This document shows positions 11,236 to 47,230 of a stretch of DNA of 64,000 nucleotides, piece after piece (the first letter of the stretch is position 1; each line of letters starts with the position of its first letter). The notes under the pieces were generated by a model. The model had not been told where the DNA came from, searched no databases, and was given only the letters and a program-made list of their open reading frames with translations. The stretch comes from Eledone cirrhosa (taxonomy: Eukaryota), in assembly GCA_964016885.1 (NCBI GenBank), contig OZ024741.1:214830001-214894000 (forward strand), written 5' to 3'. Both the position numbers and the translations under genes were made by a program.

Positions 11236-11302
11236 TTTTATCTGATGAAAACACAAATATTATTGTTTGATGATGTTTGTTTTTGAAATGCGCATAATAA
11301 AA
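11236..11302 (+). ncRNA. Type I hammerhead ribozyme motif (family X)
   Basis: TTTTAT-CTGATGA-[..CAAATATTATT(GTTT)GATGATGTTTG..]-GAA-ATGCGCAT-A^ATAAAA with palindromic stem III. Confidence 0.75.
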
Positions 11303-11889
11303 TATATTGAACTCCTTTAACCATCTTTTGATCTTATATTATGCATACTCCAGTCCCACAAACTGTAGAGTGCTTCTTATCCGATATCTGCATTGCTTTA
11401 TTGTACTACAATAAAACTCACCTCCTACATATATATATATATATATATATATAGTAATAATAATAAATTAGAAGACTAAAATCCAAAGAGGGCTCGATAA
11501 GGATAAATATATATCAAATATATAAGAACCGTAGAGCAAATATTTATTAAGAACAGATGAAAGATCCCGTTAAGGGTGAAAGCAGCGATTCTTTGCTTAA
11601 ACTTTAATCTGTTTTTAATATATATATATATATATATGTGTGTGTGTGTGTGTGTGTGTTTATGTGTAGGTATGTATAAGTTATATACATCCCTCTTTTG
11701 TCTCTCACCCCTCTACTTCCGAGTCTGTGGGTCTTTCTCTTATACCCACACACCCCTCCCAAAGACAAATATATCAGCTGTATTGCAAACACTCTAGAAA
11801 GTTTATCATGTCTTATATTGTTGTTGTTGTCGTCGTGTCGGTTTATTTCTGCTGTTGTTGTCCTCGTTTCTTTGTTTCTTATTGTTGTT

Positions 11890-12992
11890 GTCATAGTCAT
11901 GATTGTTGTTGTTATTGTTGATGTCCCTCCCTCCCAGCCCTACCACCACCACCACCACCATCTCTAAGACACCTTATTGTTGTTGTTGTTGTTCTTATTG
12001 TTAATAACCCTCCCACCCAGCCCCACCACCACTCAATCATCACTAAAACACCTTATTGTTGTTGTTGTTGTTGTTGTTGAAGTCCCTCCCCCCAGCCCCA
12101 CCACCACACCACCATCTCTAAAACACTTTATTATTGTTGTTGTTGTTGTCGTTGATGTCCCTCCCCCAGCCCCACCACCACAACACCATCTCTAAAACAC
12201 TTTATTATTGTTGTTTTTGTTGTTGATGTCCCTCCCCCAGCCCCACCACCACACCACCATCTCTAAATCACCTTATTGTTGTTGTTGTTGTTGATGTCCC
12301 TCCCCCAGCCCCACCACCACGCCACCATCTCTAAAACCCTTTATTATTGTTGTTGTTGTTGTTGATGTCCCAGCCCCACCACCACACCACCATCTCTAAA
12401 TCACCTTATTGTTGTTGTTGTTGTTGTTGTTGATGTCCCTCCCCCAGCCCCACCACCACACCACCATCTCTAAATCACCTTATTGTTGTTGTTGTTGTTG
12501 TTGTTGTTGATGTCCCTCCCCAGCCCCACCACCACACCACCATCTCTAAACACCTTATTGTTGTTGTTGTTGTTATTGATGTCCCTCCCCCCAGCCCCAC
12601 CACCACACCACCATCTCTAAACACCTTATTGTTGTTGTTGTTGTTGTTGTTGATGTCCCTCCCCCCAGCCCCACCACCACACCACCATCTCTAAAGCACC
12701 TTATTGTTGTTGTTGTTGTTGTTGTTGTCACTCCCCCCAGCCCCACCACCACACCACCATCTCTAAAACACCTTATTGTTGTTGTTGTTGTTGTTGTTGA
12801 TGTCCCTCCCCCCAGCCCCACCACCACACCAACATCTCTAAAAAACTTTATTATTGTTGTTGTTGTTGTTGTTGTCCCTCCCCCCAGCCCCACCACCACA
12901 CCACCATCTCTAAAACACCTTATTGTTGTTGTTGTTGTTGTTGTTGTCCCTCCCCCCAGCCCCACCACCACACCACCATCTCTAAAACACCT
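11890..12992. repeat. Minisatellite, ~60-bp unit containing a variable (GTT)n tract, ~18 copies
   Basis: Unit CCTTATT(GTT)nGATGTCCCTCCCCCAGCCCCACCACCACACCACCATCTCTAAAACA. Confidence 0.95.
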
Positions 12993-13514
12993 TTAAAAAT
13001 TCCTTCCTTATCTCTTTCCCTCCTTCCACCACTCTACCGTCTCTCTTTCTTTCTTTTTTTCTTTCTGTCAATCTTTCTTTCTGTCATTCCTTCTTTCTTT
13101 CTTTCTTTCTTTCTGTCATTCTTTCTTTCGTTCGTTCTTTCGTTCATTCGTTCTTTCTTTCTTTTCTACACTTCATCAACATTCCATGTTTGCCGTTTCT
13201 CTCTCTCTCTCTCTCTCTCTCTCTCTCTCTCTCTCTCTCTCTCTCTCTCTCTCTCTCTCTCTTTCTTTCTTTCTCTCTCTCTCTCTCTCTCTCTCTCTCT
13301 CTCTCTTTTTTTTCTCTCTCTCTTTCTCTATCTGTCGCTCTAAGGCTCTCTCTAATTTCTCGTGACACACACACATACATATATGCATGCATATAGACGC
13401 ACACATACATATATACATACATACACACTTACACACATACATACATGAATACATACATATAGACGCATGCATACATATATGATATATACAACCATACACA
13501 CAAACAGACACATA

Positions 13515-43621: not shown

Positions 43622-45380
43622 AATTCAAGAAAGAAGATTGACATGGTTCGCTATACAATAAGTGCTTTATTCACATTGCTGACAATTGTTTCTTTGATCT
43701 GGCAGATCTAGAGTTCGCTATACGCCTGATTATGCGCCAATCGATCTCCAATACTTTGTTTATAACCAGTCGGTTTCATCAGAGCGGGTGAAATGAAGAA
43801 AATACATAAGACATGGTTTTTATATAAGTGTGGTATTAAACCAGAACAATAATATCAATGAGAAAATAAAATAACTAGATAGCAGACAATTAAAATAATG
43901 ATTTCTTTATTTCTTTATTTCTTTCTTTCTTTCTTTTTTTTTTTTTCGTTTTATTAGACAATTAAAATAATAACATCAATATAAGTAAGATATAATGAAG
44001 AATCTAGCATGTTAAACAGACTGATATGATACAGATGTATGGAATTGACGTGTGAAAACTGCTATAGGGTACATTAGATATAGTGATGGGGTAGCGACTA
44101 GATAACAGTAACCACTAAGATGTACTTGGAGACAGAATTTATGAGGTATCCACTGTGCTGTAGGTATTCTAGCAATAAACCGGAGATTTACTTTTTATTT
44201 TTTTATTATTTGACAGATAAACATTTTCGTTTGATTAATTTAGTAGTGATGATAGTTTTTATGTGGTGTTAAATAGAGTTGTAGATTCGTTATTTAAGTG
44301 GCCTATACTAAACGTAAGGATTGTTAGTTCGACTCGTGGGGTTTAGTTTTCACAGCATCAATAACAAATCGTGTATAAATAAGATAGTGATAACAACAAT
44401 AATTGTTTCTACTTTAGGCACAAGGCCAGCAATTACCCAGTGCATTACTGGTACTTTATTTTATCGACCCCGTAAGGATGAAAGGCAAAGTCAACCTCGG
44501 CGGGATTTGAACTCAGATCGTAAAGGGACGTAACTATGCTGGAAAGCATGGCGTCCGACCCTCTACCGATACTGCCAATCCACCGCCCTATAACAACAAT
44601 AATGGAAGGTAGTAAAGTAGTAAAATGTGAATGGTAGATATATAGGACATGATGAATAATATTAGGGCTATATTGAGATGTTCATAATAATAATAAGAAT
44701 AATAAGAATAATAAGAATAATAAGAATAATAAGAGGAAAGTGAGATTTCAAGGGGTGTAGAAGTACTAAGATAAAATACTTAGAATTAGGTTCATCTGTT
44801 AGAGATCGTGAGTGCTAATGAGAGATATAAATCCTTGGTCCGATGTAGTGTGTAACAGTGAAGGTAGGATTGATTTATGGCTGATAAGAGAGTTGTAGAC
44901 ATATTCCAGTGGAATAGAATTAGGGGGCTATAAGGTATTTCTAGAAAATTATAGTTCCGTATTGGGCTGTGTGAGAAGGCGGATTTCATATGTTAGAAGC
45001 TAAGTGGTATTGGTTCGAATCACGGTGGTTTAAATCTCGCCAATTTTGTAGCAATCCTATGTCTGCAGAAAATTGAGCTTTCTATTTTCCTTAAGATATG
45101 CAGCAATTGAAGGTTGCAGGGCCCGCAGTAGCACATACCGCTGCTATATGTCTTTGCGGTCGCCAATTTCGACCAGCTAATATTATAATCAAAGTGTTTG
45201 TCCTTAAGTTGCCAGATTTTATTGGCGAGGCTTGTAGAATTTATCAGTGCACGGATCGATTCGCGCATAATCAGGCGTATAGCGAACTCTAGACCTTCCA
45301 GATCAAAGAAACAATTGTTAGCAATGTGAATAAAGCCCTTATTGTATAGAGAACCATGTCAATCTTCTTTCTTGAATTAT
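43622..45380 (-). mobile_element. 5'-truncated Naiad-type PLE (GIY-YIG C-terminus at 45020-45250) with an inverted pLTR fragment; SINE inserted at 44400-44590
   Basis: SLANKIWQLKDKHFDYNISW..CGPCN..IFCRHR. 43622-43745 is the reverse complement of 45255-45378. Confidence 0.8.
43678..43785 (-). ncRNA. Type I hammerhead motif with very long stem II
   Basis: Minus strand: GCT-CTGATGA-[~80 nt, CTGG..CCAG]-GAA-ACAATTGT-C^AGC. Confidence 0.6.
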
Positions 45381-45982
45381 TATTACTCCAAGTATAAACT
45401 ACATAGAAATCACCACGAACTCGCATCATCACTATGGAAAGGTCTTGTTGAGTCAAACTAAGCAACACGTTAATACTATCCACTACAAGAACTACTCCAA
45501 CTGGACTACATCTAAGTGGACTGCCATAACGATAACCTGTTATCCCTTATATATATATATATATATATATATATATATATATATATATATATATATATAT
45601 ATATATATATATATATATATATATATATATATATATATATATATATATATATATATATATATATATATATATATATATATATATATATATATATATGTAT
45701 ATATATATGAAAAACGTAAAATAAGAAAATTATAAAAATTAACTTACTTACTAAAATTTCACTCCAACTAATTAGTTTCTGAAAGGGAATAAACATGGTT
45801 TCCAAATGGGAAGCACGGAGAAGCCGTTTCGTCATCAGAAAGTCTGTTCTCAGCTAAGATACCTGGCGATGCGTGGAAACAAGGAACTTATACAAAAATA
45901 ATTCAGTGGATGGAAAAAAGCAAGCGTGGACTAAATTCCAAGACATTGAAAAAATCGGTGCCTATATATATATATATATATA

Positions 45983-47230
45983 ATATAAGATAAAAGGATG
46001 GTTAAAAGTGTTCCATGTATTTTATTATGCGCATTTCAAAAACAAATATCATCATGAGATGACATTTGCGTTTTCGTCAGATAAAATAGGGAGACATGAT
46101 ATGAAGGTTAAAAAACACTTGTGAATAGTGCAGTTTTTAATCAACATATGAAAAGTAATTTAAGATTGATGTGTAATATTGGGACAAAAATGATGGGGGG
46201 GGGGGGGATGAAAAAGAGGAGGAGATGAGAGTAGAAAATTGTGAGGGAGGAGTATAATAAGAAAGGATGAGATAGGAGGAGAAATGGGTGATAGAAAGAG
46301 AGAGATAGCCTTTATAACTGAGAAAAATATTGTTTCACAGAGAGAGGTTAAAAAGCCGTGGGAAGATAATATATAATTTAAAAGAATTTGAAAATTGATG
46401 AAGAGAAAAATTAATGAAGAGAAAAAAATTAAGAATAATGTTGAATTAAGGTTTGTATATTGAAGGGTTTAATAATATGTGCGATGAAAAGAAATTGTTA
46501 ATATGTATCATTAAAAAAAATATATTAATGTTATTAAGGATATAATGTGAAAAGAAGTAGAAGAGTGGATGAATTATGAATTTAAAGGAATTAGTTAGTG
46601 TTTAAGTTTGTTTTTATGTAATGTAATATGTATGCGTAATATATGTAAATAGTATGTTTACAAATGAGCGCAGAAAGCAAAGAAGAAAATAGTGTTTAAG
46701 GAAGAGAAGACTCTAACAACAAAGTATATATGTTTATGAAGTATTTCCTAATGGTAATAATATAATATAATGTAATAAAGGAGATTAGTTAGGGTTTAAG
46801 TTTGTTTTTATGTATTGTGATATGTAATATGTAAAAGTTAGACGAGCATGAAAGGGAGAAAAATATATAATGAATTGCGGAGGAATAATCTAACGTCAAA
46901 AAATGTTTATGTTTACGAAGGATTTTTAAAGGTTATACTATAAAATATTTAAAAGGTAATAATAAGTTTTATGGCCAATGATATGAAGGAAGAAGGAAGA
47001 GTGGTTATATTGTGGTGAGTAATAATAAGAATTGAGAAGTATATAGGAAGAAAAAGTACAGATTAGAGGTTAGAAATTAAAAGAAAAGAGGAAGAAAGGG
47101 AATTGATAAATAGGAATGATATAGAATTTCGTTAGGTCGAGGGGCCAGTATGTTCAACCTGTTATGGTGCCGTTTTAGTAACTGACATTAATAATTATGT
47201 TAATATTTGTTCTATAGATTTGAGTTGTTC
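45983..47230 (-). mobile_element. Longest family X copy (HHR at 46020-46086 plus ~1.1 kb upstream)
   Basis: 45983-46400 aligns with 10572-10960; HHR core is CTGACGA. The sequence continues as a strand-biased, UTR-like tract. Confidence 0.75.

What the first reader, a model, noticed from the sequence alone, without database searches (positions are those of the whole stretch)
11236..46086. Family X hammerhead: stem II substitutions across five copies preserve pairing
Seen: the stem II 5' strand and loop read CAAATATTATT-GTTT (11.2 kb), CAAATATTATT-GCAT (15.8 kb), CAGATATCATC-CCAT (19.5 kb), CAAATGTTATT-ACAT (36.8 kb) and CAAATGTCATC-TCAT (46.0 kb), all opposite GATGATRTTTG. The stem changes are A-U/G-U or U-G/C-G swaps, the loop varies freely, and N7 varies (CTGATGA/CTGACGA). 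Inference: purifying selection on RNA structure. Family X is among the most frequent non-SINE repeats here (at least 7 loci).
Basis: seen in the sequence. Interest (0 to 1): 0.7.

Follow-up and report, generated by a model that had tools for sequence, protein, structure and literature searches.

The report
Hydra-clade Penelope retrotransposon hammerhead
These repeats are the cut-short ends of a young jumping gene with over 20,000 copies in this animal genome, each carrying a predicted self-cutting RNA of a known kind whose stem stayed paired in the lineages that spread but decays at random in copies once inserted.

Summary
The five stems are real. They are type I hammerhead motifs in the terminal repeat (pLTR) of a Hydra-clade Penelope-like retrotransposon. 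An intact 3,896-bp tandem unit elsewhere in the genome has an 809-aa RT + GIY-YIG ORF, and the 11.2-kb copy is 99.8% identical to its end. At least 22,784 motifs exist genome-wide.

The five copies alone prove little: all changes are one-sided transitions. In 138 copies from 91 insertions, stem II variants shared by three or more insertions keep pairing 7 of 7 times, while private ones break it 15 of 18 times (Fisher p=0.00025). Selection therefore acts on source elements, not on inserted copies. Two-sided covariation needs sister families (14 of 21 pairs). These also keep an unpaired C at stem II step 4, which this scan had already noted on other DNA of this genome.

Every insertion ends downstream of an intact cut site, so reverse transcription likely uses uncut or re-ligated RNA. 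Cleavage and expression are untested. Verdict: new member of a known kind, of modest interest.

The parts
10571..10960 (-). Inverted 5'-truncated arm of the youngest subfamily, without the tail; hammerhead at 10609-10679 (C3 10671)
   Evidence: 100% identical to the intact unit; 387-nt inverted repeat
10961..11433 (+). Forward arm: end of the 3' UTR, hammerhead and ~90-nt tail, ending in (TA)n
   Evidence: 99.8% identical to the intact unit
11234..11304 (+). Type I hammerhead: stem I 11234-11241/11297-11304, core CTGATGA 11242-11248, stem II 11249-11284 with C.U mismatch at step 4, GAAA 11285-11288, palindrome ATGCGCAT 11288-11295, predicted cut after 11296
   Evidence: this 63-nt core has 1,712 exact copies in the genome
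15537..15708 (-). Inverted arm without tail; hammerhead 15577-15647 with a private change that breaks the helix III palindrome
15704..15967 (+). Forward arm with hammerhead 15766-15836 and tail
16055..16241 (.). Separate stub: inverted tail piece (16055-16173, -) joined to a 69-nt piece of the RT gene around the YRDD codons (16173-16241, +; 91% identical)
19360..19563 (.). Inverted tail end (19360-19402, -) plus forward arm with hammerhead (C3 19466); stem I and the helix III palindrome are damaged in this copy
22492..22656 (.). Stub: inverted tail (22492-22600, -) plus forward piece starting at GAAA; no complete hammerhead
36741..36907 (+). Single arm with hammerhead 36802-36872, no tail
36923..37198 (.). 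Two-armed insertion of a diverged subfamily (F): tailed inverted arm 36923-37088 (-), forward hammerhead with C3 37109 and a G-C pair at 10.1-11.1
45965..47128 (-). Longest copy in the window: about 1 kb of 3' UTR plus hammerhead 46018-46088 (C3 46080), no tail
18235..18300 (-). Hammerhead of a sister family (different stem II, C.C mismatch at step 4, ATATATAT palindrome)

Best explanation
The motifs are type I hammerhead folds in the terminal repeat of a young Hydra-clade Penelope-like retrotransposon, and the fold is kept by selection on the lineages that transposed, likely because two copies pair and cut the element's tandem transcript. Shown: the host element (tandem 3,896-bp units, one 809-aa RT + GIY-YIG ORF each, motif 185 nt upstream of the next ATG); 5'-truncated, often two-armed insertions in (TA)n; pair-keeping shared variants; neutral decay of inserted copies. 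Inferred: a read-through RNA from a tandem locus carries two motifs 3.9 kb apart. Their AUGCGCAU palindromes would form the joint helix III, and cleavage after AUA would release a unit-length RNA with a 185-nt leader. Since insertions end about 35-55 or 125-145 nt downstream of an intact cut site, reverse transcription likely starts at two internal sites on uncut or re-ligated (circular) RNA. The element's own protein may assist the fold; the unpaired C at step 4 is a candidate contact.
For: Host element: collinear RT, EN, UTR, motif and tail in L069 and L065; intact tandem ORFs; model pLDDT 87.5 whose eight best PDB matches are telomerase RTs; Hydra motifs RW, DKT, CxCx5C, CxxC, CxH. Selection: in stem II, shared variants keep 7 and break 0, private ones keep 3 and break 15 (p=0.00025). 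Core changes plus stem-breaking changes: 30 private and 0 shared, against 52 private and 32 shared in flanks, loop and N7 (p=1e-5). Genome-wide, 19,954 of 22,784 motifs with an intact 3' strand (87.6%) have a fully pairing 5' strand, about what 1.26% private decay per site over 11 sites predicts (87%; rate), so no large broken-stem subfamily is hidden. Across 21 chosen motifs, 14 of 21 pairs change on both sides and slid controls collapse; helix III stays palindromic through AUAUAUAU/AUGCGCAU. Closing helix III in the monomer costs about 3 kcal/mol; the palindrome duplex is -10.5 kcal/mol. Ends are bimodal: 105 short and 60 tailed of 166 copies; 35 of 40 divergent pairs have one of each.
Against: No cleavage, dimer or expression data: the two RNA runs offered barely touch the element and do not cover the motif. 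In a Poseidon element, ribozyme mutants did not reduce insertion in vitro and no RNA ends mapped to the cut site (PMC11167929, part 2 read). Pair 10.1-11.1 is A-U in most family X copies, not the usual G-C. Palindrome-breaking helix III variants recur in 3-6 insertions. The tail (3-5% divergence) and post-motif flank (8-11%) are better conserved between subfamilies than the motif (14-15%). Six of the seven shared stem II variants were already visible in the five window copies, and three of the four searches that yielded loci used the motif region itself. The 809-aa protein had no Pfam match passing cut-off, so the EN call rests on motifs and relatives.
Confidence: 0.7

Rival explanations
1. 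The fold is selected as a binding or folding signal for the element's RT-EN protein, and cleavage is rare or dispensable.
For: All insertions span an intact cut site. The tail and flank are more conserved than the motif. C10.4 and the A10.7-U11.7 pair are held in sequence while neighbouring pairs covary. Cleavage was dispensable and protein-assisted in vitro for an anole element (PMC11167929).
Against: The pattern matches catalytic needs: 0 shared variants at 11 core sites while N7 varies, a non-G residue at the cut site, and a palindromic helix III kept through two-sided changes.
Confidence: 0.2
2. The pair-keeping changes come from mutation bias in stems (transition bias, A-to-I editing of the RNA fixed by reverse transcription, or hairpin-templated repair), not from selection.
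For: All 8 shared stem variants are transitions and 6 are A/G. Shared A-to-G affects 6 of 20 stem adenosines against 1 of 22 in flanks (p=0.04).
Against: Private changes show no A>G excess over T>C (3.79 vs 4.33 per 1000, p=0.57), and only 157 of 339 are transitions. Bias cannot explain zero shared core or stem-breaking changes or two-sided transversion swaps in sister families. Flanks are themselves constrained, which inflates the A-to-G contrast.
Confidence: 0.07
3. Selection acts on the individual genomic copies, for example through host use of the ribozymes.
For: High local density: 5 motif-bearing family X insertions in 64 kb against 5 in 1.44 Mb of unselected DNA.
Against: Private mutations break stem II in 15 of 18 cases, as neutral change predicts, and hit the core 8 times. 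Window copies at 15.6 and 19.5 kb are damaged. The window is (TA)n-rich (97 tracts against a mean of 62 per 64 kb) and was picked for the cluster.
Confidence: 0.03

Closest known systems
Hydra-clade Penelope-like elements, including Hydra-1_Obim (Craig et al. 2021, PMC8557442; passages, sections 11-12, File S1 rows and File S2 read)
   Same: Single ORF with C-terminal GIY-YIG; RW, DKT, CxCx5C, CxxC and CxH motifs; (TA)n targets; tandem and inverted 5'-truncated insertions; hammerhead near the 3' end with a long palindromic helix III.
   Different: Unit 3.9 kb with a 1.2-kb 3' UTR (published: generally under 3 kb). Tail about 90 nt (30-40 described for PLEs). Stem II of 16 steps with a C.U mismatch, whereas the 26 Hydra rows of File S2 look fully paired by eye (they were found with a descriptor that favours paired stems). 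The motif differs from that of Hydra-1_Obim. No alignment to Hydra-1_Obim was run.
[quoted passage not shown]
   Same: Type I topology, CUGANGA and GAAA core, long helix II, palindromic helix III implying dimers, mostly solitary truncated copies, opposite-strand pairs.
   Different: No extra base between positions 9 and 10.1; A-U rather than G-C at 10.1-11.1 in most copies; 8-bp stem I; 8-nt palindrome. By eye only 2 of the 56 Fig. S3 motifs have a mismatch at step 4 (C.A in one sea urchin family, U.U in one fluke family).
Poseidon element PAc of Anolis (Frangieh et al. 2024, PMC11167929; parts 1-2 of 4 read)
   Same: Two internal RT start sites that define a tail; insertion from unprocessed RNA; AT-rich targets.
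   Different: Different clade. In PAc the motif overlaps the ORF start and the tail lies in the ORF; here motif and tail lie wholly upstream of the ATG.
Metazoan non-LTR retrozymes (bioRxiv 10.64898/2026.07.22.740005, part 1 of 5 read; PMC7229834, search listing only)
   Same: Type I hammerhead, tandem units, link to PLE pLTRs.
   Different: Family X is autonomous and protein-coding; its short copies are 5' truncations of variable length, not tandem non-coding units.

Membership tests
Type I hammerhead ribozyme | Core C3-U4-G5-A6-N7-G8-A9, G12-A13-A14, A15.1-U16.1, H17 with three helices in type I order | tested here: met
   no shared variant at 11 core sites; triplet AUA
Type I hammerhead ribozyme | Covarying helices I and II | tested here: met
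   5 of 8 stem I pairs and 7 of 8 stem II pairs change on both sides in 21 motifs chosen by hand from family X, F and sister families
Type I hammerhead ribozyme | G10.1-C11.1 closing pair typical of active motifs | tested here: not met
   family X+F has A-U 113, G-C 30 (subfamily F), G-U 7 of 150; R-Y pairing is kept
Type I hammerhead ribozyme | Match to an Rfam hammerhead model | tested here: not met
   Searches (whole window, gathering score; 36700-37300, E up to 10): none
Type I hammerhead ribozyme | Site-specific self-cleavage | not testable with these tools
   no raw RNA reads of the host
PLE-type dimeric hammerhead | Short palindromic helix III, unstable as a monomer | tested here: met
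   monomer closure -6.4 vs -9.3 kcal/mol open; duplex -10.5; ATGCGCAT in 126 of 150
PLE-type dimeric hammerhead | Unpaired base between A9 and 10.1 (min-HHR consensus) | tested here: not met
   stem II starts directly after A9; the bulged type occurs in another family of this genome (5 rows)
Penelope-like element (EN+) | Single ORF with telomerase-related RT and C-terminal GIY-YIG endonuclease | tested here: met
   TERT top matches; IY..YFG; Pfam GIY-YIG in only 4 of 71 aligned proteins and not the query
Penelope-like element (EN+) | Tandem pLTRs, inverted 5'-truncated arm, tail at one end | tested here: met
Hydra clade | RWK motif, DKT in place of DKG, no GxKF/Y | tested here: met
   RW at 46-47 (T in place of K in this protein; K in 37 of 71 rows), DKT at 132, no GxKF/Y
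Hydra clade | CxCx5C linker; CxxC and CxH around the conserved E and N | tested here: met
   668-676, 768-771, E774, N787, 796-798
Hydra clade | Insertion into (TA)n | tested here: met
Hydra clade | Placement in an RT phylogeny with named Hydra elements | not tested
   no tree with named references was built; membership rests on the diagnostic motifs
Neptune clade (my first guess) | CX2-5CxxC linker and DKG motif | tested here: not met
   against the definitions
Non-LTR retrozyme | Non-coding tandem units of a few hundred bases | tested here: not met
   the unit is 3,896 bp and codes for 809 aa

The most novel reading that the evidence does not exclude
In octopod-type Hydra-clade elements the hammerhead is an essential, protein-gated switch. 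The element's own RT-EN docks on the fixed C.Y mismatch and A10.7-U11.7 pair of stem II, triggers dimer cleavage and re-ligation of the tandem transcript into a 3.9-kb circle, and copies that circle from two start sites to make the two-armed insertions. The near-identical intact subfamily would be a ready system to settle whether PLE hammerheads serve the element or merely ride on it.
Probability: 0.2. Interest if true: 0.65.

Novelty: new member of a known kind. Interest (0 to 1): 0.3.

Why it matters
Hammerheads in PLE terminal repeats are known, and a Hydra element with one is described from an octopus. Their role is open: Craig et al. 2021 allow that they may simply parasitize PLEs, and Frangieh et al. 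2024 found cleavage dispensable in vitro. This family adds population-style evidence that the core and stems were kept in the lineages that transposed, while inserted copies decay neutrally. It also supplies an intact, very young element for a direct test. It warns that alignments of genomic repeat copies must separate shared from private changes before selection is inferred or rejected. The evidence does not tell selection for the element from selection for the ribozyme's own spread.

Tried and rejected
Rfam: no hammerhead match. Pfam: no family passing cut-off for 8 ORF pieces or the 809-aa protein. PDB sequence searches: nothing under E 0.3. The single-sequence fold failed (pLDDT 33); the fold with a 71-row alignment worked.

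Neptune clade: rejected after reading the Hydra definition. Retrozyme: rejected, the unit is coding.

Expression: two RNA runs held 0.04 of the words and gave four short contigs each, none over the motif. This is no evidence either way.

PLE ORF pieces lay upstream on the same strand for only 3 of 62 motifs outside the main family X/F set, and one of these three is the family X ORF of a neighbouring insertion. PLE origin of most sister motifs is therefore inferred, not shown.

Rows dropped: 19 of 196 hits did not span the motif; 39 subfamily F copies were kept out of the shared/private test; 1 private stem II change had a gapped partner; 11 of 177 copies were not measured for ends; 3 of 30 loci were dropped as overlapping or duplicated. 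The 21 rows of A1 were chosen by me and left out the two rows with a C-G pair at step 4; the unselected tally is. The nearest-neighbour count had flank counts inflated by truncation junctions and was replaced.

Lunse et al. 2017 on PLE hammerhead dimers is not held; I saw only its title. It may already describe the mismatch. Six paper searches showed no paper on this family. Supplements of the bioRxiv preprint were not available.
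Full report
1. Observation. The five stem II strings are present as stated, four on + and the 46.0-kb copy on -. Each sits in a complete type I hammerhead layout: 8-bp stem I, CTGAYGA, a 16-step stem II with a C.U mismatch at step 4 and a 4-nt loop, GAAA, the palindrome ATGCGCAT as helix III, and the triplet AUA. Two more complete motifs lie on inverted arms (C3 at 10671 and 15639). Rfam found nothing. My descriptor found 24 motifs of various families in 144 unselected 10-kb stretches and none in reversed or shuffled controls. The loop is less free than stated: four of five read N-CAT.

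2. What the repeat is. The window lies in a 3.0-Gb animal genome. I infer an octopod from the (TA)n-rich DNA and earlier notes; no call names it. Longer copies continue upstream through about 1.1 kb of 3' UTR into a GIY-YIG-like endonuclease and an RT. The UTR end of the 11.2-kb copy gave 41 listed matches, all 100% identical over 239 nt, some spaced 3.9 kb apart. One such locus holds an inverted truncated arm, a truncated unit, then two full units of 3,896 and 3,893 bp, each with an intact 809-aa ORF, a tail and (TA)n. The predicted cut lies 185 nt upstream of the next ATG. The protein has 70 relatives at 31-40% identity. Its model (pLDDT 87.5) matches telomerase RTs best. It carries the Hydra-clade signatures given by Craig et al. 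2021: RW, DKT, CxCx5C, CxxC and CxH, and no GxKF/Y. In one public run, contig depth is about 3,000-6,000 at the ORF start and 430,000-670,000 near the motif, as 5' truncation predicts, though depth is not a copy number. Exact patterns give 22,784 and 21,234 motif halves and 1,712 exact copies of the 11.2-kb core. The window holds seven family X insertions or stubs, one subfamily F insertion and one sister motif.

3. Is there selection? I pooled the loci from four searches, targeted stretches and 1.44 Mb of evenly spaced DNA: 196 hits, 177 spanning the motif. Setting aside 39 of subfamily F left 138 copies from 91 insertions. Variants were classed by the number of insertions carrying them. In stem II, 7 of 7 variants in three or more insertions keep the pair, against 3 of 18 single-insertion variants (Fisher p=0.00025); with stem I it is 8 of 8 against 5 of 27. 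A random change keeps a pair with probability 0.19-0.30 at transition shares of 33-50% (observed 46%). The 7 of 7 then has p below 0.001; it is 0.03 if all changes were transitions. The 11 core sites have no shared variant, 8 private ones and one in two insertions, while N7 is polymorphic. Genome-wide, 19,954 of 22,784 motifs with an intact 3' strand have a fully pairing 5' strand. That 87.6% equals what private decay predicts. So inserted copies are neutral and the source lineages were constrained. Limits: six of the seven variants were already in the five window copies; three searches used the motif region and return best matches; 'shared' includes recurrent hot spots such as CpG decay in helix III. 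Between the 11.2-kb and 46.0-kb subfamilies, four-fold sites differ by 26-30%, the upstream UTR by about 30%, the motif by 14-15%, the next 37 nt by 8-11% and the tail by 3-5%.

4. Covariation and the mismatch. Family X alone has only one-sided changes; pair 10.1-11.1 runs A-U, G-U, G-C once subfamily F is included. In 21 motifs chosen across families, 14 of 21 pairs change on both sides, and slid controls drop from 91% to 33-55% paired (rows are related, so the shuffle counts are not probabilities). Step 4 of stem II is unpaired in all 21. In a tally that set no condition on step 4, it was paired in 1 of 56 sister motifs (C.C in 53) and in 0 of 24 from the unselected sample, where A10.7-U11.7 held in 24 of 24. 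In one sister family the closed form occurs 84 times against 7,569. I saw this before looking up earlier notes; the scan had recorded it several times on other DNA of this genome. It was not mentioned in the texts I read, but Lunse et al. 2017 was unavailable.

5. How it likely works. Helix III cannot close well in a monomer, whereas two palindromes give a -10.5 kcal/mol duplex. This fits the dimer model for PLE hammerheads (PMC4209133; passages of PMC6765202). A tandem transcript would carry two motifs and could be cut to unit length. Copies end in two clusters, 90-109 nt (105 of 166) and 180-200 nt (60 of 166) after C3, both beyond the cut at offset 55; 35 of 40 divergent arm pairs have one end of each kind. 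The template for reverse transcription must therefore span an intact junction, from uncut or re-ligated RNA. Two internal start sites, as shown for the anole element, would explain the tail. Cleavage, dimerisation, circles and protein assistance are all inferred.

6. Rivals. Selection for protein binding without cleavage remains possible (0.2). Editing or transition bias may add A-to-G changes in stems (6 of 20 against 1 of 22 adenosines, p=0.04), but private changes show no strand asymmetry and bias cannot explain the invariant core. Host selection on copies is contradicted.

7. Verdict. A new family of a described clade with a described kind of ribozyme motif. The useful additions are the shared-versus-private test and an intact, very young element. 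Interest 0.3.

Noticed in passing
window 11409-11428 and all tailed copies; L281 735-757: The tail ends in a short hairpin with AATAAA on both strands. Its antisense strand reads like a 5' splice site (AG|GTGAGT, GTAAGT in some copies), kept in subfamily F (splice consensus recalled). Meaning unknown.
   Followed up: no
window 18880-18960 (-): A weak hammerhead-like match with a CCGCGG palindrome and a long, poorly paired stem II; may be chance or another family.
   Followed up: no
window 3598-4515 (+) and 57440-58253 (-): Remnants of other Hydra-like PLE ORFs at 30-36% identity to the 809-aa protein. Such hits occur in 26 of 144 unselected 10-kb stretches.
   Followed up: partly
window 25598-27711 (+): GC-rich broken ORF pieces with a DKG motif and a GIY-YIG-like stretch, probably a different PLE clade; no Pfam match for the piece tested.
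   Followed up: no
window 48996-51954 (-) and 14524-14985 (-): A non-LTR retrotransposon (APE endonuclease frame plus 659-aa RT frame) with a 3' fragment of the same family at 14.5-15.0 kb; a second LINE-like remnant at 7828-9947 (+) (families named from recalled motifs).
   Followed up: no
window 20514-21464 (-): Mariner/Tc1-like transposase remnant (named from recalled motifs).
   Followed up: no
window 3159-5445, 31324-32242, 58255-60536: Long near-perfect inverted repeats (339, 261 and 311 nt), not family X; possibly two-armed insertions of other elements.
   Followed up: no
L087 4636, 3629, 3070; L139 3137: Hammerhead-like motifs with a very long, partly paired stem II and a CTAATTAG palindrome, another family.
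   Followed up: no
window 36557-36740: A different short element with inverted arms around a (TA)n tract abuts the 36.8-kb copy.
   Followed up: no
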